The notes beneath the pieces are model-generated. The model saw only the letters and a list, made by a program, of their open reading frames with translations. It made no database searches and was not told the DNA's origin. The position numbers and the translations under genes were made by a program. Shown one piece after another: positions 15,812-27,540 of a DNA stretch of 64,000 nucleotides; the first letter of the stretch is position 1; each line of letters begins with the position of its first letter. Origin of the DNA: an uncultured Bacilli bacterium (lineage in GTDB: Bacteria > Bacillota_I > Bacilli_A > RF39 > UBA660); the NCBI GenBank assembly GCA_944332435.1, contig CALVJW010000003.1:1022-65021 (forward strand), in the 5' to 3' direction.

Positions 15812-18439
15812 ATGACAAAATATGTATATGCATTTTCTGAAGGAAATAAGGATATGCGTGATCTACTTGGAGGAAAAGGTGCTAATTTAGCAGAAATGAC
15901 TTCTATTGGATTACCTGTTCCAAGTGGATTTACCGTTACAACAGAGGCTTGTAACAAGTACTATGATGATAATCAAGTAATTAGTGAAGAAGTAAAAGTG
16001 CAAATCTTTGAAGCGTTACAGGCATTAGAAAATCGTACTGGTAAAAAATTAGGGGATAAAGAAAATCCACTATTAGTATCAGTTCGTAGTGGTTCTCGTG
16101 CTAGTATGCCAGGAATGATGGATACAGTACTTAATCTGGGATTAAATGATGAAGTAGCTGTTGGTTTTAGTGAAAGTACAAATAATCCTAGATTTATCTA
16201 TGATTCTTATAGACGTTTTATTATGATGTTTGCAGACGTTGTAAAAGGTTATCCAAAACAATCTTTTGATCGTATTTTAGATAAAATAAAAGAAGAAAAA
16301 GGTGCAAAATACGATACGGATTTAACTGCAGAAGATATGATGGAAGTAACGAAGAAATTTAAAGAAGTTTATAAAGAATTATCTGGGGTAGATTTTCCAC
16401 AAGATCCAAAAGAACAATTAATTGAAGCAGTAACAGCTGTTTTCCGTTCTTGGAATAATGAAAGAGCCATCATTTATCGTAAAATGAACGATATTCCAAG
16501 TAGTTGGGGAACTGCAGTTAATGTTCAAGAAATGGTATATGGAAACCGTGGAGATAACTGTGGTACTGGAGTAGCATTTACTCGTAATCCAGCAACTGGA
16601 GAAAAGAAATTATTTGGTGAATATCTAATGAATGCCCAAGGAGAAGATGTAGTAGCAGGAATTCGTACTCCATCACCAATCGCAACATTAGAAACATCAA
16701 TGCCTGAAGTATATCAAGAATTTGTTCGTACAGCAAATATTTTGGAACAACATTATAAAGATATGCAAGATATGGAGTTTACAATTGAAAATGGTAAACT
16801 TTATATGCTACAAACACGTAATGGAAAAAGAACGGCTCATGCAGCTTTAAAAATTGCAGTTGATTTAGTAAATGAAGGTATGATTAGTAAAGAAGAAGCG
16901 ATTTTAAAAGTAGAACCAAAATCACTAGATCAATTATTGCATCCAATGTTTGATGGAGAAAGTTTGAAAAATGGAACCGTTATCGCAACAGGTCTTGCCG
17001 CTTCACCAGGAGCAGCAACTGGTAAAATTTATTTTACTGCTGAAGAAGCATCAAAAGCTCATGCAAATGGAATTCCATCAATTCTAGTTCGTTTAGAAAC
17101 TTCTCCTGAGGATATTCAAGGTATGAATGATGCTGAAGGAATTCTTACAATCCGTGGTGGTATGACAAGTCACGCAGCCGTAGTTGCACGTGGTATGGGT
17201 CGCTGCTGTGTTTGTGGATGTGGTGAACTAACTGTTGATGAAGAAAATAAAACTTTAACAACGAAAGATGGTCATGTATATCATGAAGGTGACGATTTAT
17301 CACTTGATGGATCAACAGGTTGTGTGTATGGGGAAGCTATTAAAACCGTTGCACCAATGATTAGTGGTGACTTTGAAACATTTATGAGTTGGGCTGATAG
17401 TATCAGAACACTTGGTGTACGTGCAAATGCTGATACTCCAAAAGATGCCGCACAAGCATTAAGTTTTGGTGCGGAAGGAATTGGGCTTGTTCGTACAGAG
17501 CACATGTTCTTTGAAACAGATCGTATTTTTGCAGTTAGACAAATGATTACTGCCGAAACAGTGGAACAAAGAGAACAAGCACTTGCTAAGATTTTACCAA
17601 TGCAACGTGATGACTTCGAAAAAATATTTGAAGCAATGAAAGGAAAACCAGTGACAGTTCGTTACTTAGATCCACCACTTCATGAATTTTTGCCTCATAC
17701 AGATGAAGAAATTAAACCACTTGCTGAAAGTCTTGGTATGACGTTTGAAACATTAAAAGCAAGAATTGATTCATTAAAAGAATTTAACCCAATGATGGGA
17801 CATCGTGGATGTCGTTTAGCAATTACTTATCCAGAAATTGCTCGTATGCAAACAAGAGCAATTATCGAAGCGGCAATCAATGTTAATAGTCGTGGTATGA
17901 ATGTTGTACCAGAAATTATGATTCCACTTGTTGGAGATGTAAATGAACTTAAATTTGTAAAACAAATTGTTGACCAAACAGCAAATGACGTAATGAAAGA
18001 AAAAGGTGTTACGTTAGATTATCATGTTGGAACAATGATTGAAATTCCAAGAGCAGCGCTTACTGCCGATAAAATTGCAGAACAAGCTGAATTCTTTAGT
18101 TTTGGTACAAACGATTTGACACAAATGACTTATGGATTTAGTCGTGATGATGCTGGTAAATTCTTAAATGATTATTATGATAAGAAAATATTTGAACAAG
18201 ATCCTTTTGCAAAACTAGATCAAACTGGTGTTGGAGCTTTAGTAGAAATGGCAGCACAAAAAGGAAGAAATACAAGACCAAATATGAAACTTGGTATTTG
18301 TGGAGAACATGGTGGAGAACCATCAAGTGTAGAGTTCTGTCATAAAGTAGGACTTACTTATGTATCATGTAGTCCATACCGTGTTCCAGTTGCTAGACTT
18401 GCAGCGGCACAAGCAGTTGTTAAGGAAGACAAAAATTAG
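15812..18439 (+). CDS. ppdK: pyruvate, phosphate dikinase
   Basis: N-terminus KYVYAFSEGNKDMRDLLGGKGANLAEM, phospho-His loop GGMTSHAAVVARGMG, and C-terminal GICGEHGGEP. RBS aaaggagg precedes the ATG at 15812. Confidence 0.93.
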   Translation: MTKYVYAFSEGNKDMRDLLGGKGANLAEMTSIGLPVPSGFTVTTEACNKYYDDNQVISEEVKVQIFEALQALENRTGKKLGDKENPLLVSVRSGSRASMPGMMDTVLNLGLNDEVAVGFSESTNNPRFIYDSYRRFIMMFADVVKGYPKQSFDRILDKIKEEKGAKYDTDLTAEDMMEVTKKFKEVYKELSGVDFPQDPKEQLIEAVTAVFRSWNNERAIIYRKMNDIPSSWGTAVNVQEMVYGNRGDNCGTGVAFTRNPATGEKKLFGEYLMNAQGEDVVAGIRTPSPIATLETSMPEVYQEFVRTANILEQHYKDMQDMEFTIENGKLYMLQTRNGKRTAHAALKIAVDLVNEGMISKEEAILKVEPKSLDQLLHPMFDGESLKNGTVIATGLAASPGAATGKIYFTAEEASKAHANGIPSILVRLETSPEDIQGMNDAEGILTIRGGMTSHAAVVARGMGRCCVCGCGELTVDEENKTLTTKDGHVYHEGDDLSLDGSTGCVYGEAIKTVAPMISGDFETFMSWADSIRTLGVRANADTPKDAAQALSFGAEGIGLVRTEHMFFETDRIFAVRQMITAETVEQREQALAKILPMQRDDFEKIFEAMKGKPVTVRYLDPPLHEFLPHTDEEIKPLAESLGMTFETLKARIDSLKEFNPMMGHRGCRLAITYPEIARMQTRAIIEAAINVNSRGMNVVPEIMIPLVGDVNELKFVKQIVDQTANDVMKEKGVTLDYHVGTMIEIPRAALTADKIAEQAEFFSFGTNDLTQMTYGFSRDDAGKFLNDYYDKKIFEQDPFAKLDQTGVGALVEMAAQKGRNTRPNMKLGICGEHGGEPSSVEFCHKVGLTYVSCSPYRVPVARLAAAQAVVKEDKN

Positions 18440-18470
18440 AACGCATAAGCGTGAAAAATATTAAGAATCA

Positions 18471-18496
18471 AAAAGAACAGAAATGTTCTTTTTTTG
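18471..18496 (+). terminator. ppdK terminator
   Basis: Hairpin gaaca-gaaa-tgttc followed by T7. Confidence 0.65.
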
Positions 18497-18660
18497 TTGG
18501 AATAAAAGGAATTAGTTAATGTTTTTTTAAATGTATTTGTTAAAAATAGTGTAATTAGTTTTATAAAAGAAAATAAAATTACGATTAGAAAATAGTCACA
18601 GTATAGTTAGGGTGACTATTTTTGGTTGGAAGAAATAAACATAAGAAAGGAGCGATTTAT

Positions 18661-19128
18661 ATGTATTATAGAAAACCAACATTAAAAAATCTTTCACAAG
18701 GAGCTCGACTTGAGTATGTTAGGAGATTAAGGCACATGAATGAAGATGATGTTGTTGAATATTTTGGATTTGGAGGAAGGTATCCTCGTAAAACATTCAG
18801 AAGCTATGAAGCTAACTATAGAGAACCAAGTAAAGAAAGACTAAAAGATATAGCAGAGTTATATGAAGTAAGTATTGATGCAATAAAAAAATATGACTTT
18901 AACGATCCGATAGATGTTATTTATTTTCATATGTGGTTGGAAGAAGAGTTTCCATATTACGAGATAAACTTCGATTGTGATAGTTATGAGAAAACAGATT
19001 ATAATGATATTGTTCAAAATGCTATTAGAGAATGGAAACAAATGAAAAAAAAAAGAGAAAATCTAGAAATATCCGATGATGAATATCTTGAATGGAAATT
19101 AAATTTTAAATTAGAAAAAGAATTTTAG
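18661..19128 (+). CDS. XRE-family helix-turn-helix regulator
   Basis: GARLEYVRRLRHMNEDDVVEYFG...FRSYEANYREPSKERLKDIAELYEVSIDAI follows the Cro/C1 HTH pattern (..yE.g.r.Ps...l..iA..l.vs.d.l). The ATG at 18661 sits behind RBS aaaggag. Confidence 0.55.
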   Translation: MYYRKPTLKNLSQGARLEYVRRLRHMNEDDVVEYFGFGGRYPRKTFRSYEANYREPSKERLKDIAELYEVSIDAIKKYDFNDPIDVIYFHMWLEEEFPYYEINFDCDSYEKTDYNDIVQNAIREWKQMKKKRENLEISDDEYLEWKLNFKLEKEF

Positions 19129-19202
19129 ATGAAGAATGAAAATATATGATATACTTAATATGAATATATATGCTTTGATTTTAAAAATATATGGAGGTAA
19201 AA

Positions 19203-20231
19203 ATGGAATATTTAATTAATAATGAAATAAATAGTGCAATATGTGATGTTGCAAGATTAATAAGTAATGATGAACAACAAATTAATCAATTGGTTGAAAT
19301 ATTGAAAAAAATGGTGACTGTTCAATTTACACAAAATGCGATTGAAGGGACATCTCATGCAGCAGGTACAGATCCTATAATTGATTTTAAGGAAGAAAAT
19401 GAAACATTTACAGTTGTATGTAATAAGATTATAGTTACTTTGCCATACTTATTAAGTGCAAATAATATCCACCATTTTAGAATTGATGCTAGACATGAAT
19501 TTTTTCATGCATTTGCTTATCTTCTAAATAATAAAATAATAAGATTAAATGTAGATAAAATGTACTTTAATTTAGGTGGAAAAATAAATGAACGAAGTAT
19601 GTATAATCCACGATGTGATAATAATGATTCATATGCTTCTATATTATTTAATGAAATCGTAACAGATCTTTCAGCTTATTGTTCATATTATCCCAAATTA
19701 AATATTAGTATGAACCAAATACTTAATGGTAATGGATTAGAAACTATAAATAATACATATGGTATGGGAAATGGATATTGTCAATTATTTCCTTTAGGAA
19801 TGTGTGTTATAAAAGCATTTTCAAATTATAATTGTGATTATGATAGGCTAGGACAAAATAAATTTGAAGCAAAGTATCAATCTGATAGTGATAAAGTTTA
19901 TTATAATGATCTATTATACGGAATCTTATACAATCCACTTAGCATTAAAGATTCATTTATAAAGTATACATCAGAAGAAGATTGGCAAACTTTAGAAAAC
20001 ATAGCAAAAAAGATTGTAACTGATTTTAAAGAAAAAGATAGAAAAGTAGATTATGATAATATTCAAGAATTTTTAACAGTTTTAGCAAAATATCTAAATA
20101 ATAAATATCAAAAGACAAATGATCTTATTCTAAAACAACAACTAACTATAATAATAGCTGAATTTAATGAATATTATAAAAAGGCATTAAATTATTATGG
20201 TAATTTAGGCTATAATAGAAATACTAGGTAA
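19203..20231 (+). CDS. hypothetical protein with an HExxH motif (putative zinc metallopeptidase in an ImmA/IrrE-like position)
   Basis: The HEFFH motif (RHEFFHAFAY) is the only recognisable feature. The placement between an XRE-HTH gene and a recombinase mirrors immR-immA-int modules. Confidence 0.4.
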   Translation: MEYLINNEINSAICDVARLISNDEQQINQLVEILKKMVTVQFTQNAIEGTSHAAGTDPIIDFKEENETFTVVCNKIIVTLPYLLSANNIHHFRIDARHEFFHAFAYLLNNKIIRLNVDKMYFNLGGKINERSMYNPRCDNNDSYASILFNEIVTDLSAYCSYYPKLNISMNQILNGNGLETINNTYGMGNGYCQLFPLGMCVIKAFSNYNCDYDRLGQNKFEAKYQSDSDKVYYNDLLYGILYNPLSIKDSFIKYTSEEDWQTLENIAKKIVTDFKEKDRKVDYDNIQEFLTVLAKYLNNKYQKTNDLILKQQLTIIIAEFNEYYKKALNYYGNLGYNRNTR

Positions 20232-20333
20232 ATATATTCTCAAAGAAGTAGGAATACTTCTTTTTCTTATGCCTAAAATCGCATCCTAATAATTATTTAT
20301 AAAAGATGATAAAGTTTTTATAGAGGTGATTTA

Positions 20334-21950
20334 ATGAAAAGAAAGGTAGCAATATATGCAAGAGTTTCAACAGAACATGAAGCTCAATTATCTGCTTTAG
20401 ATAATCAAGTCCAATATTATGATAGTATTTTGAAACAACATCCTGATTGGATTCTATATGATAGATATATCGACGAGGGTATAACTGGCACTTCTACTAA
20501 GAAGAGAAAAAATTTTATGAAAATGCTAGAAGATGCTAAAGAAGGTAAATTTGATTTAATAGTTACTCGTGAAGTATCAAGATTTGCAAGAAACACAGTT
20601 GATACTTTACAAGAAACTAGGAGGCTAAAGAAGATAGGAGTTGAAGTTTATTTTACTGAAGATAATATATGGACATTTAATGATGAAGATGGAGAGTTAA
20701 AACTTACAATAATGGCAACACTTGCTCAAAATGAAAGTAAAAAAACTTCTCAAAGAGTAAAAGCTGGCCAAATGATTTCATTTCAAAATGGAGTGTTCTA
20801 TGGAACAGGTAATATACTTGGATATGATAAAGTAGGTAAAGATTTAGTAGTTAATGAAGAACAAGCTGAAATAGTAAAATTTATTTATTCAGAGTATTTA
20901 AATGGTAAGGGAACAGTTTCTATAGCAGATGAATTAACAAGGAAAGAAGTAAAAACATCAACCGGGCTAACTAACTGGAGTCCGTCTTACATATCAAGAG
21001 TATTAAGAAACCCATTTTATTCAGGTACAATAGTTTATAGGAAATCATATATACCAGATTATCTAGAACAAAAGCCTGAAATGAATTATGGAGAAGTAGA
21101 ACAAGTAATTGTAGAAGGTAAACATGAGCCGCTTGTATCAAAAGAAGACTTTAAAAAAGTTCAAGAAATAATGGATGGTCATTCAAAACAAATTAAACTT
21201 GGTATTAGACGAGCTAAAGGAACTGCTAAAAATATTTGGAGTAAAAAGTTAATATGTGAATGTGGGTCTAATTTCAATAGAAGAGTATATCATAGGAATA
21301 AAACTAACACTACATTTTCTTACGATTGCTATAATAGAAAAATGCATCCTGATAGTAAATATAAAAATACTGATTATAAATTGTGTGAAGTAAAAGAAGT
21401 TCAAGAGTGGAAATTACAATTTATGGCTGAAGCAATTTTTACAAAGCTTACACAAGATACGGATAATAGAAAAGAATTAGTTAATAAATTAATGAATGGA
21501 GTGAAAATAGATGATCATCCAGAGAAAAAAATAAAACAAAGAATTGATAAATTAAATCAATTAATAAAAAAGGAAACAGCAAAATTAGATAAACTAATAG
21601 ATACATATTTAGATGAAACAATAAATATAACAATGTATGATATATTCCAAAAGAAGTTATCAAGTAGAATAGAAAAATATAAAATAGAAATTAGCGAATT
21701 AGAAAAAGAATATAAATCAATAGAACCATTAGAGGTAAGAATTGAAAAGGTAAAAAATAGTATTCGTAAATTATTAGATATTAGTTATAATGGTGTTGAT
21801 GAAAAAATAATAGAAGAATTTGTAGATAAAATAATAGTTCATAAAGATTATTTTGAATGGAAGTTAAATTTTATGAATGAAACAATAAAGTTAGAAATAA
21901 GTGGTAAAAGTAAATCAGATTGCTTTGTTGTGGAATATAAGGAAAAATAA
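20334..21950 (+). CDS. large serine recombinase (resolvase/invertase N-domain, recombinase domain, zinc ribbon, coiled coil)
   Basis: VAIYARVSTEHE (catalytic Ser region), DLIVTREVSRFARN, TLAQNESKKTSQRVKAG, a Cys cluster CECGS...CYNRK, and a long K/E-rich coiled-coil C-terminus. Confidence 0.9.
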   Translation: MKRKVAIYARVSTEHEAQLSALDNQVQYYDSILKQHPDWILYDRYIDEGITGTSTKKRKNFMKMLEDAKEGKFDLIVTREVSRFARNTVDTLQETRRLKKIGVEVYFTEDNIWTFNDEDGELKLTIMATLAQNESKKTSQRVKAGQMISFQNGVFYGTGNILGYDKVGKDLVVNEEQAEIVKFIYSEYLNGKGTVSIADELTRKEVKTSTGLTNWSPSYISRVLRNPFYSGTIVYRKSYIPDYLEQKPEMNYGEVEQVIVEGKHEPLVSKEDFKKVQEIMDGHSKQIKLGIRRAKGTAKNIWSKKLICECGSNFNRRVYHRNKTNTTFSYDCYNRKMHPDSKYKNTDYKLCEVKEVQEWKLQFMAEAIFTKLTQDTDNRKELVNKLMNGVKIDDHPEKKIKQRIDKLNQLIKKETAKLDKLIDTYLDETINITMYDIFQKKLSSRIEKYKIEISELEKEYKSIEPLEVRIEKVKNSIRKLLDISYNGVDEKIIEEFVDKIIVHKDYFEWKLNFMNETIKLEISGKSKSDCFVVEYKEK

Positions 21951-21985
21951 TATTCAGTGGTATAATATAAGAAGGAGATGGTCTC

Positions 21986-23410
21986 ATGGATCAAACATAT
22001 TGTGGTGATTTAATATTTAATAACATAAAATACAAATTCGATTTTAGAAACAATGTTTTAGTTATTATTCCTGATGAATTAGAAGATTATACAAAATGGC
22101 ATTTTAAAAATATAGGTAGTAAAGATAAATTTGAACGAGTAAATGTTGAAGGTACTACTAACAATGGTTTTTATATTTGTTTTATTCATGTTAAATTTTC
22201 ACATATGGGAAGGGGAATATTACAAGCGTTTGTACCTGGATATGTTATTTGCAAAGCCGTTGGAGTAAGTCCTCTTCCTAAATGTGAAGAAATTAGTAAA
22301 ATAAGATTTTTCGGTGAATGTTTAGATAGATTCTATTATCCAAAAAGAATAATTAAAACCAGTGATTTTTTTCAGTCAAATGATATAACTTTAGAGGTGA
22401 ATAAAAATAAACTTAAAACAGATAATTTTATTATTAATAAAGATGTATTTAAATTTGGAGTAGCATGGAAAATTCCTTTTAGTTCTAATATTAATGTTGT
22501 TCTTGATGTTGAATCATTTTTAGAAATTGAATTTAATACTAAACAAAACATAGATGAAATTGTTGAGTATTATTTAAAGGTAAAAAAATTCTTTTCTTTT
22601 ATAAATAATAGAAAATATATAAAATTCAATAAAGTTATAGCATATACTACTATTCCGGTAAACTACGGAATAAAACGAGATGATATTAGAAACGAAGAAT
22701 TTAAATTTGAATTCTATTTTGTAGATCCTGATGAGAAATATGATTTAGATAAAGCTAATAATTCAATTCATTTAGAAGATTTAGACAATAAATTTTCGAA
22801 AATATATAAGTTAGTTACTAATAAGGATTTTTTGACAGAATATTATCCATTAAGTATATCAGATAATAATTATGTGGATAATGATAAATATGTTAATGTT
22901 GCTAGAGCATTTGAATCTGAATTTGATAAATTGTATCCAAAATTCAAAGCAAAGACGAGTGAAGAATATAATGCTGTAAAAAAAGCGTTATTGAAATGTT
23001 TATCAAATAAGAAGAATAATGCTAATTTAGCAATAAAAAAAGAGAAAGATATAAAATATAATAAAAAGATTATAAAAGAATGTAACTATTTTAATAAAAT
23101 TATTAGCAAAATGGAAGGGAGTTTGTCAGAAAAAGTAACATACTCTTTAAGAAAATATAAAGAGATTATTTCTAATAAAAAGAAGTTAATGCTAAATAAT
23201 TATCAAATTACCAAAATAAAAGATGGAGTTTTAGCTGACAAATTTAAAGAAAGAAGAAATGCTATTTCACATGGAAGTTCTGCTAATGCTTTTACTGATA
23301 TAGAAGTAATAGCATATGAACTAGTAAGAATGTGTATATATTGTATAACATTAGAAAGATGTAAAATGTCAGAGGAAAAAATAGATAATATAGTTAGTAA
23401 AATATTTTAA
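21986..23410 (+). CDS. HEPN-motif protein, ApeA-like architecture (beta-rich N-domain plus C-terminal HEPN)
   Basis: 474 aa. The C-terminal helical region carries KERRNAISHG, which is R-N-x3-H and so fits the HEPN Rx4-6H RNase motif with the typical polar residue after Arg. Size and layout resemble single-gene ApeA defence proteins. The assignment was made without a profile search. Confidence 0.5.
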   Translation: MDQTYCGDLIFNNIKYKFDFRNNVLVIIPDELEDYTKWHFKNIGSKDKFERVNVEGTTNNGFYICFIHVKFSHMGRGILQAFVPGYVICKAVGVSPLPKCEEISKIRFFGECLDRFYYPKRIIKTSDFFQSNDITLEVNKNKLKTDNFIINKDVFKFGVAWKIPFSSNINVVLDVESFLEIEFNTKQNIDEIVEYYLKVKKFFSFINNRKYIKFNKVIAYTTIPVNYGIKRDDIRNEEFKFEFYFVDPDEKYDLDKANNSIHLEDLDNKFSKIYKLVTNKDFLTEYYPLSISDNNYVDNDKYVNVARAFESEFDKLYPKFKAKTSEEYNAVKKALLKCLSNKKNNANLAIKKEKDIKYNKKIIKECNYFNKIISKMEGSLSEKVTYSLRKYKEIISNKKKLMLNNYQITKIKDGVLADKFKERRNAISHGSSANAFTDIEVIAYELVRMCIYCITLERCKMSEEKIDNIVSKIF

Positions 23411-23557
23411 AAAAAATAAGTTATTTTAGTCAAAATAGAACGGTATATCGTTCTTTATAGTATTCCTAAGTATTTTGTGGCACAAGCTGCAGTCAAATCT
23501 GCTGGAAAAAATTAATAGAACATAAAAATACTTGCTGTTAAATTAATTCTTATAAAG

Positions 23558-23585
23558 GACGATAAAACAAAATCGTCTTTTTTTA
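23558..23585 (+). terminator. rho-independent terminator downstream of the HEPN-motif gene
   Basis: Hairpin ggacgat-aaaacaaa-atcgtc followed by T8. A weaker hairpin (agaacg/cgttct) lies at 23437-23454. Confidence 0.6.
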
Positions 23586-23589
23586 TTGA

Positions 23590-23920
23590 AGAAGACGATA
23601 ATAGATTAAATTTAGAATTAATATGTGATGAATATGATAGTCCAATATATTACTAGAGTTATTACAGAGTATGAATCAAAAAAGAAAGCAATCGTTTTGG
23701 TAAATAAGTATAAAGACTACAATTAGTGAGAAAAATTAAATTTTCAAAGTTTAGAACGAACTACGCAAGAGCAGAAAATATTCAAGAATTTTTAGAGAAT
23801 AATTTAGATTCAAAATAGTTATTATCAAAAGAAGAAATTGAGTGGGTAACAACTTATCTTTGAGAAATGAAAAAGTATTTTTACACGTTACTACATCTAT
23901 TGTAATAAATATTGGATATT
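23590..23920 (+). pseudogene. decayed gene fragment; its C-terminal part is homologous to the fragment at 27267-27366
   Basis: The reading frame is broken by several stops (..KFSKFRTNYARAENIQEFLENNLDSK*LLSKEEIEWVTTYL*EMKKYF..). It shares the 20-nt string atgaaaaagtatttttaca and an EEIEW peptide with 27267-27366. Confidence 0.35.
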
Positions 23921-24167
23921 TGCATAAAGATTCTTTTTAGAAGAAAGAACAGAGCAAGTTAGTGATAATAAAAAACAAAATGTATAAAATATAAATATAT
24001 AATAAAGACAATCTTGAGGAGTGATAGATTATCACTTTTTTATTATGATTTAGAACGATGAATAGTAAGGCATTTTTCACAAGAAGTAATGAGATGGTTA
24101 ATACGAACATTTCATTGACAATGTACCTTTTTATGTTATAATAACAAAACAAAAGGAGGAAATTTTT
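23921..24167 (+). repeat. terminator-promoter cassette, copy 1 (paralogous to 25934-26211)
   Basis: Roughly 80% similar by eye to copy 2: agattcttttt-agaaga..., aaaacaaaatgtat.aaatataaata, and hairpin gaggagtgat...atcac(t)ctttt, followed by a TTGACA-16-TATAAT promoter. Confidence 0.7.
24115..24142 (+). promoter_or_regulatory. sigma-A type promoter of repeat-protein gene 1
   Basis: TTGACA (24115-24120), 16-nt spacer with TGt extended -10, then TATAAT (24137-24142). RBS aaaggagga follows. Confidence 0.6.
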
Positions 24168-25907
24168 ATGTTCGAAGAAGACCTAGAAATACTAAAAATT
24201 TTAAACTGTAATAATGCATCGATGATTTTTAATTACGCTACAGGAAATAGAAGAATGAGTAAAGAAGTATTAGAGAAACTTGAGGATGCGATTATAGCAA
24301 CAGAATATGCAATGTACATTTGTTTTTTTGCAAAAAATATAGAAGGGGCAAATATAGCAAAGCTAGAAGACGCCATTATAGAGATTGGAGATGCCAAATA
24401 TATTTATCATTTTGCAAGGGATATAGAAGAAGCAAATATAGCAAAACTCGAAGATGCCATTATAAAAACTGGAAGTATAGACTATATTTTTGATTTTGTA
24501 AAAAATGTAACAGGAGTAAATATTGAAAAATTCGAAGATGCTATTATAAAAACTGGAAAATTAAGTACTATCAGTCGTTTTGCAACAGAGGTAGAAGGAG
24601 TAAATATTGAAAAATTAGAAAAAGCAATTATAGCAATAGGAAGAGCAGACTTTATTTTTTTGTTTGCAAAAGATGTAGACGGAGCCTATATAGCAAAACT
24701 AGAAGACGCCATTATAGTAACAGGAAATGCTGAATATATTTATAGGTTTGCACGTGAGATAAAAGGAGCAAATTTTGAAAAATTAGAAAATGCCATTATA
24801 GTAACAGGAAATGCCGAATATATTTATAAGTTTGCTAGAGATGTAAAAAGAGCAAATGTTGGAAAATTAGAAGAGACTATTATAGCAACAGGAAATGCTG
24901 AATATATTTATAAGTTTGCTAGAGATGTAAAAAGAGCAAATGTTGGAAAATTAGAAGAGACTATTATAGCAACAGGAGACGCCGAATACATTTGTGAGTT
25001 TGCAAAAAATGTAACAGGAGCAGATATGCCAAAATTAGGAGAAGCAATCATAGCAACAGGAGACGCCAAATACATTTGTGAGTTTGCAAAAAATGTAACA
25101 GGAGCAGATATGCCAAAATTAGGAGAAGCAATCATAGCAACAGGGAAAGCCGAATATATTTATAAGTTTGCAATGGAAACAAAAAGAGCAAATATAGCAA
25201 AATTAGAAGAAGCAATGATAGCGACAGGAAATGCCAAATATATTTATCTCTTTGCAAGAATCGGTGTAGTATATGAAAGTGAAATAATCAGTTTACCAAA
25301 ATTAGAAGAAGCTATTATAAATACAGGAGATGCAAAATATATTTATAAGTTTGCAAAAGAAGTAAAAGGGGCAAATATATCAAGATTAGAAGATGTAATT
25401 ATAGCAACAGGAGACGCTGAATATATTTATTGTTTTGCAAGAGACGTAGAAAGAGTAGTTATCGCAAAACTAGGATCTGTTATTATATCAATAGGGGACG
25501 CCGAATATATTTATAAGTTTGCCAAAGATGTAAAAAGAGCAAATATTGAGAAATTAGAAGAAGCTATCATGGCAACGAGAAATGTAAAATATATTTGTAG
25601 GTTTGCCAAAGATGTAAAAGGAACAAATATTGCAAAATTAGAAGATGCAATTATAGCAACAGGGAATGCCAATGATATTTATTGTTTTGCACTCGTTGTA
25701 GGAGACGCCAATATAATAAAACTAGAAGATGCAATTATAGCAACAGAGGATGCTGAATATATTAACTCTTTTGCAAGAGATGTAATCGGAGCAAATATAG
25801 AAAAATTAGAAGAAGCGATTCAAAAAGTCGAAGAAAATACAAAAATAATAAAGAAAATTCAGAGAAAATTTCAAATTTATCAGAAGAAAAAACGTGAAAA
25901 TGATTAA
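24168..25907 (+). CDS. tandem-repeat protein, about 18 copies of a 28-aa predicted helix-turn-helix-hairpin repeat (family not recognised)
   Basis: 579 aa. The consensus unit is LEDAIIATGNAEYIYKFARDVKGANIAK repeated head to tail. There is no signal peptide or TM segment. The gene has a strong RBS and promoter. Confidence 0.85.
   Translation: MFEEDLEILKILNCNNASMIFNYATGNRRMSKEVLEKLEDAIIATEYAMYICFFAKNIEGANIAKLEDAIIEIGDAKYIYHFARDIEEANIAKLEDAIIKTGSIDYIFDFVKNVTGVNIEKFEDAIIKTGKLSTISRFATEVEGVNIEKLEKAIIAIGRADFIFLFAKDVDGAYIAKLEDAIIVTGNAEYIYRFAREIKGANFEKLENAIIVTGNAEYIYKFARDVKRANVGKLEETIIATGNAEYIYKFARDVKRANVGKLEETIIATGDAEYICEFAKNVTGADMPKLGEAIIATGDAKYICEFAKNVTGADMPKLGEAIIATGKAEYIYKFAMETKRANIAKLEEAMIATGNAKYIYLFARIGVVYESEIISLPKLEEAIINTGDAKYIYKFAKEVKGANISRLEDVIIATGDAEYIYCFARDVERVVIAKLGSVIISIGDAEYIYKFAKDVKRANIEKLEEAIMATRNVKYICRFAKDVKGTNIAKLEDAIIATGNANDIYCFALVVGDANIIKLEDAIIATEDAEYINSFARDVIGANIEKLEEAIQKVEENTKIIKKIQRKFQIYQKKKREND
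24816..25145 (+). repeat. two pairs of (near-)perfect 84-bp tandem duplications inside the repeat-protein gene
   Basis: 24816-24893 equals 24900-24977 (offset 84 nt, identical). 24978-25061 versus 25062-25145 differ at one base (E->K). Confidence 0.9.
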
Positions 25908-25933
25908 ATAACTTAGTGAATTCGCATACTATT

Positions 25934-26211
25934 TACATAGAGATTCTTTTTTAGAAGAAGAATCATCTCAAGCTAGTAATGATAAAAACAAAATGTATCA
26001 AATATAAATAATATGACTATATATAGTAAAACATTGTGAGGAGTGATTGCTCATCACTCTTTTATTATGTTTTAGAACGATAGATATTTTGTAGTTGACA
26101 ACAATATTGGTAGTGAGTTTTACCAAAAGAAACAACACAATGATTGAAATTATCTTTCGTTGACAAAATAACTTTTTATGCTATAATAACATGCAAAAGG
26201 AAGGGAATTAT
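25934..26211 (+). repeat. terminator-promoter cassette, copy 2
   Basis: Paralogous to 23921-24167. It has the hairpin gagtgat-tgctc-atcactc at 26041-26059 and the promoter TTGACA (26160-26165)-16 nt-TATAAT (26182-26187). Confidence 0.7.
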
Positions 26212-27234
26212 ATGGCTAGTGAAGAAACAAGAATACAAGAAATTTTTAATTATATACGAGAAAAAAAATATAATAGTAAAGAAGAATTAAGTAAATTAGA
26301 AGATGAGATTATAATGACTGGAGATGCTCAATACATCTATGAGCTTATGAGAGATGTTATAAGATTAAACCTTGATGGAATAAATATATCAAAGTTAGAA
26401 GATGCCATTATAAAAGCTGGGGATGTAGGATATATGTACCGTTTTGCTGGCTATGCTGTTGATTCCAAATTTAAAGGGGTAAATATTTGGAAAATAGAAG
26501 ATGCCATTATAAAAACTGGAAATGTTGAATATATTTATTATTTTGCTGGTATTACAGGCGCTAATATCGCAAAACTCGAAGATGCACTTATAGAAATAGG
26601 AAATGTTGAATATATTTATTATTTTGCAAAAAGCGTAAAAGGATCAAATATTGAAAAATTAGAAAATGCCATTATAGCTACAAAAAATATAGAATATATT
26701 TGTAAGTTTGCAAGATACGTAAAAGGATCAAATATTGAAAAAATAGAAGATGGTATTATAAAAACTGAGGATGCAAGATGCATTTATGAATTCGTAATTT
26801 CTACTATAGGGCTTCATATTAAAGGAATAAATATGCTAAAGTTAGAGGACGCCATTATAGCAACAGGGAATGCTGAATATATTTATAAGTTTGCTCGTAA
26901 CATTGCTGGAGCAAATATTGCAAAATTAGAAGACACTATTATAGCAACCGGAAATGCTCAATATATTTATTATTTTTTTAGAGTTGCTGGAGCAAATATT
27001 ACAAAGCTGGAAGAAGCATTATTAAAAACTGGAAACGCAAAATATATGTATTTTTTAGTAGGATATATTGAGGATTCAAAATTTGAAGGCATAAATATTG
27101 CGAAATTAGAAGATGCCATTATAGCAACCGGAGACGCCGAATATATTTATTGGTTTGCATGTAACGTTGATGGAGCAAATATTGCAAAATTAATAAATGA
27201 CGAAAGAGATTCAAAAGTATTGAAAAAATTATGA
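26212..27234 (+). CDS. tandem-repeat protein paralog, about 10 copies of the same 27-33-aa repeat
   Basis: Same unit as the upstream gene (LEDAIIATGNAEYIYKFARNIAGANIAK). Some units carry a 5-aa insertion (..DSKFKGVNI..). The ATG at 26212 sits behind RBS aaggaaggg. Confidence 0.85.
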   Translation: MASEETRIQEIFNYIREKKYNSKEELSKLEDEIIMTGDAQYIYELMRDVIRLNLDGINISKLEDAIIKAGDVGYMYRFAGYAVDSKFKGVNIWKIEDAIIKTGNVEYIYYFAGITGANIAKLEDALIEIGNVEYIYYFAKSVKGSNIEKLENAIIATKNIEYICKFARYVKGSNIEKIEDGIIKTEDARCIYEFVISTIGLHIKGINMLKLEDAIIATGNAEYIYKFARNIAGANIAKLEDTIIATGNAQYIYYFFRVAGANITKLEEALLKTGNAKYMYFLVGYIEDSKFEGINIAKLEDAIIATGDAEYIYWFACNVDGANIAKLINDERDSKVLKKL

Positions 27235-27266
27235 TAAAAATTTAAATAAAAAAACTTATTATATTA

Positions 27267-27366
27267 AAAAGAAATCGAATGGTTAGCTAATTTGTCTTTG
27301 GCGGATGAAAAAGTATTTTTACATGCTGCTGTATCTATTGCAAAAATAAGAGAATTAAAATGATAA
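27267..27366 (+). pseudogene. orphan C-terminal gene fragment, homologous to 23828-23912
   Basis: Translates as KEIEWLANLSLADEKVFLHAAVSIAKIRELK* with no upstream ORF. It matches the decayed fragment upstream of repeat gene 1. Confidence 0.35.
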
Positions 27367-27461
27367 AGTTACTTTTAATCTTGCTAGTTTAGATGTCATC
27401 TTTATTGAAAAAATTTATCAAATATGACTGTAGTATCAACAACACCATAGTGTAAAATAAT

Positions 27462-27492
27462 AAAAAAGTAACATGAATTTGTTACTTTTTTT
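27462..27492. terminator. bidirectional terminator at the right edge of the island
   Basis: aaaaaagtaac-atgaattt-gttactttttt, with A and T runs on both sides. Confidence 0.6.
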
Positions 27493-27540
27493 CATATTGA
27501 TAATAGAAATATGTTACAATAAAGTTGGAAGGTGAAAAAA

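What the first reader, a model, noticed from the sequence alone, without database searches (positions are those of the whole stretch)
21986..23410. 474-aa protein with a C-terminal RNxxxH HEPN motif (ApeA-like single-gene defence candidate)
About 55 residues from the C-terminus, the sequence DKFKERRNAISHGSSANAFTDIEVIAYELVRMCIYCITLE contains R-N-A-I-S-H inside predicted helices. This fits the HEPN Rx4-6H ribonuclease motif, with the usual Asn after Arg. The preceding 400 residues look beta-rich and unrelated. HEPN at the C-terminus of a protein of about 470 aa, next to a recombinase, is the architecture described for ApeA. I could not confirm the N-domain family by eye, so it may be a new N-terminal sensor fused to HEPN.
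Basis: partly seen in the sequence, partly recalled or inferred. Interest (0 to 1): 0.6.

Follow-up and report, generated by a model that had tools for sequence, protein, structure and literature searches.

The report
HEPN RNase on a small mobile island
This gene encodes a predicted RNA-cutting (HEPN) protein with a beta-rich front domain, carried as the fixed last gene of a 5-kb mobile element whose relatives carry restriction enzymes, so it is probably an untested single-gene phage defence; it is not a detectable relative of the well-studied E. coli ApeA.

Summary
The ORF (21986-23410, +, 474 aa) and its RNAISH motif are real. A bare Rx4-6H turns up in 38% of shuffles of this protein. What matters is that R424 and H429 are the only invariant Arg and His across 50 homologues down to 21% identity, with N425 at 98%.

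The protein belongs to the computationally defined "ApeA-NTD1 + Apea-HEPN" architecture (Anantharaman 2013; Pfam PF18862 and PF18739). Its own ApeA_NTD1 score is 24.8 bits against a cutoff of 25.5. HEPN_Apea does not hit it directly, but full-length homologues pass both cutoffs.

It is not detectably related to the validated ApeA defence protein. Ec1ApeA (601 aa, helical N-domain) matches PADLOC's ApeA model and no Pfam Apea model. This protein shows the reverse pattern, and profile comparison aligns only the motif.

Foldseek gave no significant PDB match for the whole protein or the C-terminal domain. The HEPN fold therefore rests on profiles and motif placement.

The gene is the last and best-conserved gene (dN/dS about 0.1) of a 5.07-kb serine-recombinase element inserted in the 3' end of the pyruvate phosphate dikinase gene. 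Sister elements carry Type IIG restriction-modification systems in a swappable slot.

Most likely it is a stand-alone, infection-activated RNase. This is a new member of a known but functionally untested kind.

The parts
21986..23410 (+). ApeA-NTD1 + Apea-HEPN protein gene, 474 aa (P0001)
   Evidence: ORF. 41 homologue clusters at 44-99% identity. 183 representatives at E<=1e-3 among 1.84 billion. dN/dS 0.09-0.13 against sister elements.
21986..22735 (+). N-terminal beta-rich domain (residues 1-250), ApeA_NTD1; presumed sensor or regulatory domain
   Evidence: Pfam ApeA_NTD1 24.8 bits (cutoff 25.5) over residues 56-206. Only hit in the genome, E 2.5e-5. Relatives pass the cutoff: P0077 27.7 and P0088 25.8 bits. 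AF2 secondary structure is mostly strands. No significant PDB or BFVD fold match.
22772..23407 (+). C-terminal all-helical region (residues 263-474) containing the Apea-clade HEPN domain
   Evidence: Domain-only AF2 model pLDDT 95.4. HEPN_Apea passes the cutoff in full-length homologues P0073 (32.7), P0061 (26.0), P0048 (25.4) and the G047 protein (37.8). No direct Pfam hit on this protein. Foldseek found no significant match.
23255..23272 (+). Predicted catalytic motif R424-N-A-I-S-H429 (Rx4H)
   Evidence: R424 and H429 invariant and N425 98% conserved in 50 sequences. The motif lies at the end of helix 413-428 and the start of the following loop, the position described for HEPN helix 3 in PMC3710099.
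22910..22921 (+). Conserved F309-E310-S-E312 block in the first long helix of the C-terminal region; candidate second acidic active-site residue
   Evidence: F309 invariant and E310 96% conserved. HEPN families often have a conserved upstream acidic residue (PMC3710099). The assignment is an inference.
21958..21977 (+). Own expression signals: extended -10-like TGGTATAAT (21958-21966) and RBS AAGGAG (21972-21977), in the 35-nt spacer after the recombinase stop
   Evidence: Read directly from the sequence. Consensus matches only; not shown to function.
18406..18414 (+). attL core GGCACAAGC, inside the last codons of the pyruvate phosphate dikinase (PPDK) gene
   Evidence: Direct repeat D14. Homology with the island-free relative G004 ends at 18415. 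The same arrangement is present in three sister elements.
23479..23487 (+). attR core GGCACAAGC, 69 nt after the HEPN gene stop
   Evidence: A sister-element contig in run X25 diverges at 23490.
23480..23515 (+). Relic of the original PPDK C-terminus (AQAAVKSAGKN*), displaced by the insertion
   Evidence: The present PPDK tail is AQAVVKEDKN*. Analogous in-frame relics follow attR in L027, L030 and L031.
18622..19128 (+). Element backbone: XRE-type HTH regulator (168 aa)
   Evidence: HTH_3, phrog_8 and a weak RstR-like hit. Present in all sister elements at 45-76% identity.
19191..20231 (+). Variable cargo slot: 346-aa orphan protein
   Evidence: No family hit. Unrelated to the cargo of sister elements. 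Slot borders at about 19107 and 20301.
20334..21950 (+). Element backbone: large serine recombinase (538 aa)
   Evidence: Resolvase + Recombinase, phrog_95 integrase E 1e-122, CcrB/CcrC/XisF-like below cutoffs.

Best explanation
**What it is.** The gene encodes a two-domain protein. Residues 1-250 form a beta-rich ApeA_NTD1 domain. Residues about 290-474 form an Apea-clade HEPN ribonuclease domain with catalytic residues R424, N425 and H429.

**Proposed mechanism (inferred by analogy with other HEPN enzymes; none of it is shown here).**
- Two copies pair through their HEPN domains to form a composite, metal-independent RNase site.
- The N-domain keeps the site off until it senses a cue of phage infection.
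- The enzyme then cuts cellular or phage RNA (tRNA, mRNA or rRNA) and blocks phage multiplication, possibly at the cost of the cell.

**What is shown.**
- The gene needs no partner gene.
- It is the fixed terminal gene of a 5.07-kb serine-recombinase integrative element (18406-23487) that inserts in the 3' end of the pyruvate phosphate dikinase (PPDK) gene.
- That element carries a swappable defence-cargo slot.
For: **Domain identity.**
- ApeA_NTD1 scores 24.8 bits on the protein itself and is the only hit in the genome.
- Among 33 close homologues, 6 hit HEPN_Apea, 8 hit HEPN_MAE_28990 and 4 hit ApeA_NTD1.
- Distant full-length homologues pass the curated cutoffs.
- An independent 460-aa protein from G047 scores 37.8 bits on HEPN_Apea. 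It also matches this family's profile end to end (E 1.4e-39) and its C-terminal profile (E 6.7e-21).

**Active site.**
- R424 and H429 are the only invariant Arg and His; N425 is 98% conserved.
- The motif sits at a helix end and the start of the following loop in confident models, as PMC3710099 describes for HEPN.

**Selection.** dN/dS is 0.09-0.13, and it is the most conserved backbone gene.

**Defence context.**
- The island is absent in same-genus G004, where PPDK abuts pfkB.
- att repeats and relic PPDK tails are present in all four elements.
- Sister elements carry Type IIG RM systems (1297, 1183 and 587 bits), a Type II MTase and a NERD protein in the slot.
- Distribution is patchy: 2 of 40 relatives.
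- No partner gene is conserved.

**Analogy.** HEPN RNases with N-terminal sensor domains, such as Ec ApeA, defend by tRNA or phage-RNA cleavage (bioRxiv 10.64898/2026.01.26.701840 and 10.64898/2026.03.20.713152).
Against: - No HEPN profile hits this protein directly, even at E<=10 in a one-genome search.
- Foldseek found no significant PDB match and no HEPN chain in the top 50, for the full-length model or the C-terminal domain.
- Profile searches of PDB sequences found no HEPN protein.
- PADLOC has no model that recognises it.
- No member of this NTD1-type architecture has a published functional test in the searchable literature.
- Because the gene is a constant backbone gene rather than swappable cargo, it could serve the element rather than the host.
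- No expression evidence could be drawn. Run X25 is labelled RNA, but DNA may be in it.
Confidence: 0.6

Rival explanations
1. Element-serving toxin. The HEPN RNase is a backbone gene that benefits the integrative element itself rather than acting mainly against phages. It could work through post-segregational killing or addiction that penalises loss of the element, or by excluding competing mobile elements at the same PPDK attachment site.
For: It is constant in every sister element, together with the HTH and recombinase genes, while the middle slot varies. It lies directly next to attR. It is the most conserved backbone gene. HEPN domains are common toxins of toxin-antitoxin systems (PMC3710099).
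Against: No antitoxin-like (MNT or other) gene is adjacent. More distant homologues (P0012, P0019) sit outside this element and in some loci are not adjacent to any recombinase, so the protein works independently of this backbone. The co-carried cargo consists of anti-phage RM systems.
Confidence: 0.2
2. Genuine ApeA. The protein is a divergent orthologue of the validated ApeA defence protein and works the same way: a doughnut-shaped oligomer, a ligand pocket between the N and HEPN domains that binds deoxydinucleotides or phage RNA, and cleavage of tRNA anticodon loops.
For: It shares a HEPN RNxIxH motif (RNAISH here, RNKITH in Ec1ApeA). Both are single-gene systems with an N-terminal non-catalytic region. 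Both are named after the same Apea HEPN clade (bioRxiv 10.64898/2026.03.20.713152).
Against: The PADLOC ApeA model scores Ec1ApeA at 1389 bits but does not hit this protein or 10 of its relatives. Ec1ApeA has no Pfam HEPN_Apea or ApeA_NTD1 hit at E<=0.1. hhalign of the family profile against Ec1ApeA aligns 33 columns around the motif at probability 0.3%. The protein is 474 aa against 601 aa. Its N-domain is beta-rich, whereas Ec ApeA is 'predominantly alpha-helical', with a catenin-like N-domain and a PafA-like Mid domain (bioRxiv 10.64898/2026.01.26.701840).
Confidence: 0.08
3. Not an active nuclease or not conflict-related. It could be a housekeeping RNA-processing or RNA-binding protein, or a decaying passenger gene.
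For: There is no direct HEPN profile hit and no structural match. The Rx4-6H motif is frequent by chance.
Against: The catalytic R, N and H are invariant over deep divergence. Purifying selection is strong. The gene is found in only 2 of 40 relatives and 5 of 401 genomes of the class carry a HEPN_Apea hit, which does not fit housekeeping. It sits on a mobile element with RM cargo.
Confidence: 0.05

Closest known systems
ApeA-NTD1 + HEPN(Apea) proteins (the 'ApeA/BMEI1217' family of Anantharaman et al. 2013, PMC3710099; Pfam PF18862 + PF18739)
   Same: Same two-domain layout: about 300 aa of mostly beta strands with conserved aromatic residues, then an Apea-clade HEPN domain with Rx4H and a polar residue after the Arg. 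Same size class (about 450-480 aa). Full-length homologues pass both Pfam cutoffs.
   Different: This is a divergent clade from AT-rich gut Bacilli. This protein itself falls 0.7 bits short of the NTD1 cutoff and is missed by the HEPN_Apea model. The family as a whole has only a computational prediction behind it, and no functional test was found.
ApeA anti-phage defence protein (Gao et al. 2020; Ec1-Ec4 ApeA, bioRxiv 10.64898/2026.01.26.701840 and 10.64898/2026.03.20.713152)
   Same: Single-gene system. C-terminal HEPN domain with an RNxIxH motif. N-terminal non-catalytic region presumed to sense infection. Found on mobile DNA: the E. coli copy lies next to a MobQ relaxase gene.
   Different: No detectable homology outside the motif. 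It is 474 aa against about 600 aa. The N-domain is beta-rich, not a helical N-domain plus Mid domain. It is not recognised by PADLOC's ApeA model. Oligomeric state, ligand and RNA target are unknown here.
Other sensor-fused or stand-alone HEPN abortive-infection RNases (RloC/PrrC, AbiF/AbiD-type Abi proteins, HepT toxins)
   Same: An Rx4-6H metal-independent RNase is predicted, with activation expected on infection or stress.
   Different: There is no ABC-ATPase domain (PrrC/RloC), no MNT antitoxin neighbour (HepT), and no profile match to those families.
Small integrative islands with large serine recombinases and swappable defence cargo (SCC/Ccr-type cassettes; defence hotspots of phage satellites)
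   Same: A large serine recombinase (best NCBIfam similarity to CcrB/CcrC/XisF, below cutoffs). Site-specific insertion in the 3' end of a conserved gene, with replacement of the gene's tail. A constant backbone plus a variable defence slot.
   Different: The target site is the PPDK 3' end. The element is only 5-10 kb, with a single recombinase and an HTH regulator. A HEPN gene is a fixed backbone member. The hosts are small-genome, uncultured gut Bacilli.

Membership tests
Pfam/Anantharaman ApeA-NTD1 + HEPN(Apea) architecture | N-terminal domain of about 300 aa, mostly beta strands | tested here: met
   AF2 model (pLDDT 86): residues 1-250 are mostly strands. This matches the description in PMC3710099.
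Pfam/Anantharaman ApeA-NTD1 + HEPN(Apea) architecture | Match to Pfam ApeA_NTD1 (PF18862) at or above the gathering score of 25.5 bits | tested here: inconclusive
   24.8 bits, E 1.8e-5 on the protein. 22.5 bits, E 2.5e-5 and the only hit in the genome. Homologues pass: P0077 27.7 and P0088 25.8 bits, best E 6.1e-8 among close homologues.
Pfam/Anantharaman ApeA-NTD1 + HEPN(Apea) architecture | Direct match of this protein to Pfam HEPN_Apea (PF18739) | tested here: not met
   No hit at E<=10 by hmmscan or in the one-genome search.
Pfam/Anantharaman ApeA-NTD1 + HEPN(Apea) architecture | C-terminal domain homologous to proteins that pass the HEPN_Apea cutoff (transitive homology) | tested here: met
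   Full-length homologues P0073 (32.7), P0061 (26.0) and P0048 (25.4) exceed 24.4 bits. An independent G047 protein scores 37.8 bits and matches family profile A2 at E 1.4e-39 and C-terminal profile A3 at E 6.7e-21.
HEPN superfamily RNase | Conserved Rx4-6H with a polar residue (N/D/H) after the Arg | tested here: met
   R424 and H429 are invariant and N425 is 98% conserved over 50 sequences.
HEPN superfamily RNase | [quoted passage not shown] | tested here: met
   Helix 413-428, then loop 429-437, then helix 438-458 in two AF2 models. Criterion taken from PMC3710099.
HEPN superfamily RNase | Four-helix HEPN core recognisable by structure comparison | tested here: inconclusive
   Foldseek against the PDB gave a best E of 0.065 (full length) and 1.3 (C-terminal domain), with no HEPN chain in the top 50. 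No coordinates were available for manual superposition.
HEPN superfamily RNase | RNase activity dependent on the R and H residues; dimeric composite site | not testable with these tools
   Needs biochemistry or multimer modelling.
ApeA anti-phage defence system (Gao 2020; PADLOC ApeA) | Match to the ApeA defence-system HMM | tested here: not met
   PADLOC gave no hit for P0001 at E<=10, nor an ApeA hit for 10 relatives. The control Ec1ApeA scores 1389 bits on PDLC02157.
ApeA anti-phage defence system (Gao 2020; PADLOC ApeA) | Protein of about 600 aa with a helical N-terminal domain, a Mid domain and a split HEPN domain | tested here: not met
   474 aa with a beta-rich N-domain, against the description in bioRxiv 10.64898/2026.01.26.701840.
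ApeA anti-phage defence system (Gao 2020; PADLOC ApeA) | Sequence or profile homology to Ec1ApeA beyond the catalytic motif | tested here: not met
   hhalign of A2 against Ec1ApeA: 33 columns, probability 0.33%, E 0.18.
ApeA anti-phage defence system (Gao 2020; PADLOC ApeA) | Single-gene system without a conserved partner | tested here: met
   Neighbours differ between contexts and the flanking unknown proteins are unrelated.
ApeA anti-phage defence system (Gao 2020; PADLOC ApeA) | Phage protection, tRNA anticodon-loop or phage-RNA cleavage, ligand-binding pocket, decameric ring | not testable with these tools
   All are experimental properties.
HEPN-MNT (HepT/MntA) toxin-antitoxin | Adjacent minimal nucleotidyltransferase antitoxin gene | tested here: not met
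   The neighbours are a serine recombinase upstream and non-coding DNA downstream. No neighbour has an NTase domain.

The most novel reading that the evidence does not exclude
The NTD1-HEPN proteins are a distinct, experimentally untouched family of single-gene immune RNases. Their beta-rich sensor domain has no counterpart among solved structures. In this lineage the gene is the fixed 'anchor' immunity gene of a family of PPDK-targeting serine-recombinase mini-islands, which shuffle restriction-modification cargo through a sharply bounded slot. The 346-aa orphan protein in this window's slot would then be a further unknown defence gene.
Probability: 0.4. Interest if true: 0.6.

Novelty: new member of a known kind. 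Interest (0 to 1): 0.42.

Why it matters
- **An annotation trap.** The Pfam 'Apea' domain names and the defence system called 'ApeA' are not the same sequence family. A hit to ApeA_NTD1 or HEPN_Apea therefore cannot borrow the mechanism now being worked out for E. coli ApeA (tRNA anticodon cleavage, dinucleotide sensing).
- **An untested family.** The NTD1-type proteins are widespread but rare: 183 representatives among 1.84 billion proteins. No functional test was found, and their N-domain has no structural match, so they are an open target for defence research.
- **A natural experiment.** The element offers a compact backbone with a swappable slot that holds Type IIG RM systems in relatives and an orphan gene here. 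That could be mined for new defence genes in uncultured gut Bacilli.

Tried and rejected
**Searches that found nothing useful**
- Direct Pfam, NCBIfam and PADLOC scans of the protein gave only a sub-threshold ApeA_NTD1 hit.
- phmmer and profile searches of PDB sequences returned only spurious hits: FtsH, saposin and designed helical repeats.
- Foldseek found nothing significant for the full-length model against the PDB or BFVD, or for the C-terminal domain against the PDB. Recurrent sliding-clamp and GFP hits for the N-domain have probability <=0.1 and TM about 0.1, so I discarded them.
- tblastn against sequenced phages and plasmids found no match.
- Rfam found no RNA family in 18-28 kb.
- Model coordinates are not exposed, so I could not check the geometry of the conserved residues.

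**Ideas tested and rejected**
- A conserved partner gene. The unknown proteins of about 340 aa flanking homologue P0019 are unrelated to the window's unknown ORFs.
- The 346-aa cargo protein being shared with sister elements. It is unrelated to their cargo.
- The 'minimal 467-aa ApeA' tested by Drobysheva et al. being an NTD1-type protein. The text and a figure legend of the preprint disagree on whether it is Bm1ApeA or Bp1ApeA. Bm1ApeA's N-terminus looks helical and unlike this protein. This remains unresolved.

**Expression.** The only 'RNA' run is labelled METAGENOMIC RNA-Seq, holds a sister element rather than this one, and may contain DNA. No conclusion was drawn.
Full report
**1. The observation.** ORF 21986-23410 (+) encodes 474 aa, and the reverse strand is closed. 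The quoted peptide is present, with R424-N-A-I-S-H429 lying 50 residues from the C-terminus. The motif alone is weak evidence. An Rx4-6H occurs in 38% of shuffles of this protein, and the version with N/D/H after the Arg in 7.7%. Conservation gives it weight. There are 41 homologue clusters at 44-99% identity and 183 representatives at E<=1e-3 among 1.84 billion proteins, most of them 450-470 aa and aligned end to end. In a 50-sequence alignment reaching 21% identity, the invariant residues other than the initiator Met are G7, F309, R424 and H429. N425 (98%), E310 (96%) and E382 (90%) are nearly invariant. None of the other 13 Arg or 4 His residues exceeds 78%.

**2. Domain identity.**
- Pfam gives one relevant hit on the protein itself: ApeA_NTD1 at 24.8 bits against a cutoff of 25.5, over residues 56-206.
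- Run against the whole source genome, that model hits only this gene (E 2.5e-5).
- No HEPN model hits the protein directly, even at E<=10.
- Among 33 close homologues, 6 hit HEPN_Apea (best E 5.7e-5), 8 hit HEPN_MAE_28990, 2 hit HEPN_RiboL-PSP and 4 hit ApeA_NTD1 (best E 6.1e-8).
- More distant full-length homologues pass the curated cutoffs. For HEPN_Apea these are P0073 (32.7), P0061 (26.0) and P0048 (25.4 bits). For ApeA_NTD1 they are P0077 (27.7) and P0088 (25.8).
- As an independent bridge, I scanned 401 genomes of the same class with HEPN_Apea. A 460-aa protein in G047, not used in my alignments, scores 37.8 bits. It also matches my full-length family HMM end to end (E 1.4e-39) and my C-terminal HMM (E 6.7e-21).

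The protein therefore belongs, by transitive homology, to the architecture that Anantharaman et al. [quoted passage not shown]

**3. Structure.** AlphaFold2 with the family alignment gives pLDDT 86 and pTM 0.81, with residues 1-250 beta-rich and 263-474 helical. The C-terminal 183 residues alone give pLDDT 95.4. R424...H429 lies at the end of helix 413-428 and the start of the loop to helix 438-458. [quoted passage not shown]

Foldseek, however, finds no significant match for either model in the PDB or for the full-length model in BFVD, and no HEPN chain appears in the top 50. Profile searches of PDB sequences are likewise empty. The N-domain has no recognisable structural relative in these libraries.

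**4. Is it 'ApeA'?** I recovered the validated Gao-2020 protein, Ec1ApeA, from an E. coli genome where NCBI annotates it as 'HEPN family anti-phage protein ApeA' (601 aa). I then used it as a control.
- Ec1ApeA scores 1389 bits on PADLOC's ApeA model.
- Ec1ApeA has no Pfam HEPN_Apea or ApeA_NTD1 hit at E<=0.1.
- The window protein and ten of its relatives have no PADLOC ApeA hit.
- hhalign of my family profile against Ec1ApeA aligns only 33 columns around RNxIxH, at probability 0.3%.
- The cryo-EM study describes Ec ApeA monomers as 'predominantly alpha-helical', with a catenin-like N-domain, a PafA-like Mid domain and a split HEPN domain. They form decameric rings that cleave tRNA anticodon loops when a pocket binds deoxydinucleotides (bioRxiv 10.64898/2026.01.26.701840).
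- A second study shows cleavage of RNA-phage genomes (bioRxiv 10.64898/2026.03.20.713152).

None of these architectural features is found here. The protein may work like ApeA, as a sensor-gated HEPN RNase, but it is not a demonstrable member of that family. The shared name reflects nomenclature and not detectable homology.

**5. Genomic context.** GC falls to 23-25% over about 18.5-24 kb, against about 30% on either side. In same-genus genome G004 (PPDK 95% identical), homology stops at window position 18415 and PPDK is followed after about 85 bp by the pfkB kinase gene. In my window that gene lies at 27532.

Within the inserted DNA, a 9-bp direct repeat GGCACAAGC occurs in the last PPDK codons (18406-18414) and again 69 nt after the HEPN stop (23479-23487). 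The second copy is followed in frame by a relic PPDK tail, AQAAVKSAGKN*. This delimits a 5.07-kb element with four genes:
- an HTH regulator (18622-19128);
- a 346-aa orphan protein (19191-20231);
- a large serine recombinase (20334-21950);
- the HEPN gene.

The three closest homologues (77-84% identity) lie in the same scaffold after PPDK, with the same kind of repeat and relic tail. Their middle slot carries other genes:
- a Type IIG RM enzyme (1297 bits) plus a Type II methyltransferase;
- a NERD/HRDC protein plus an MmeI-type IIG enzyme (1183 bits);
- another IIG enzyme (587 bits).

A contig from a chicken-gut run shows a fifth version, with 2366 unrelated bases between sharp borders at about 19107 and 20301. 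The HEPN gene is thus a fixed backbone gene next to attR. It has its own RBS and an extended -10-like element.

It is the best-conserved backbone gene, at 77-87% aa identity against 65-80% for the recombinase and 45-76% for the HTH, with dN/dS of 0.09-0.13. More distant homologues (57-65% identity) sit in other variable regions, often near serine recombinases, Mob_Pre relaxases or IS elements, and have no conserved partner. Only 2 of 40 relatives carry a homologue, and none occurs on sequenced phages or plasmids. Near-identical DNA recurs in chicken-gut metagenomes from several studies. One homologue comes from Candidatus Onthousia, an uncultured Bacilli genus.

**6. Interpretation.** The best reading (confidence about 0.6) is a stand-alone, sensor-gated HEPN RNase acting in phage defence or abortive infection.
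- Shown here: domain family, invariant catalytic residues, purifying selection, mobile-element carriage, defence-gene company and absence of a partner gene.
- Inferred only: dimerisation, gating by the N-domain, the trigger and the RNA target.

The main rival (about 0.2) is that the gene serves the element, through addiction or competition between elements, because it is part of the backbone rather than cargo. Being a genuine ApeA orthologue (about 0.08) or a non-nuclease or housekeeping protein (about 0.05) is unlikely.

**7. Verdict.** This is a new, divergent member of a known but functionally untested protein architecture, in an informative mobile-element setting. Interest is moderate.

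Noticed in passing
window 19191-20231 (slot borders about 19107 and 20301): A 346-aa orphan protein with an HEFFH motif occupies the element's variable slot, where sister elements carry Type IIG RM systems. It has only 9 homologue clusters (64-100% identity) and no Pfam, NCBIfam, PADLOC or PHROG family.
   Followed up: partly
window 18406-18414 and 23479-23515; L027, L030, L031: The 3' end of the PPDK gene (A-Q-A-A codons) is a recurrent attachment site for a family of 5-10 kb serine-recombinase elements. Each element supplies a replacement PPDK tail and terminator and leaves the original tail as an in-frame relic after attR.
   Followed up: yes
window 23516-27500: Compared with same-genus genome G004, a further 4 kb beyond attR is also extra. 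It holds two 28-aa-repeat proteins (24168-25907 and 26191-27234), and similar DNA occurs on contig C11 of the same genome.
   Followed up: no
window 18407-18414 (run X1): In the best DNA-holding run, contigs break exactly at the attL core. Depth is about 25 on the PPDK side and about 40 on the element side. This hints at population heterogeneity or extra copies of the element.
   Followed up: no
L034 (E. coli NZ_CP042899.1, 1197261-1199066): The validated E. coli ApeA has no Pfam HEPN_Apea or ApeA_NTD1 match at E<=0.1 and no NCBIfam HMM hit, although NCBI names it ApeA. It lies next to a MobQ relaxase gene.
   Followed up: yes
bioRxiv 10.64898/2026.03.20.713152, text versus legend of Figure S1: The preprint's text and figure legend disagree on which tested homologue (Bm1ApeA or Bp1ApeA) is the 467-aa 'minimal' protein with no BLAST similarity to Ec1ApeA. 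One of them protected against DNA phages and the other could not be transformed.
   Followed up: partly
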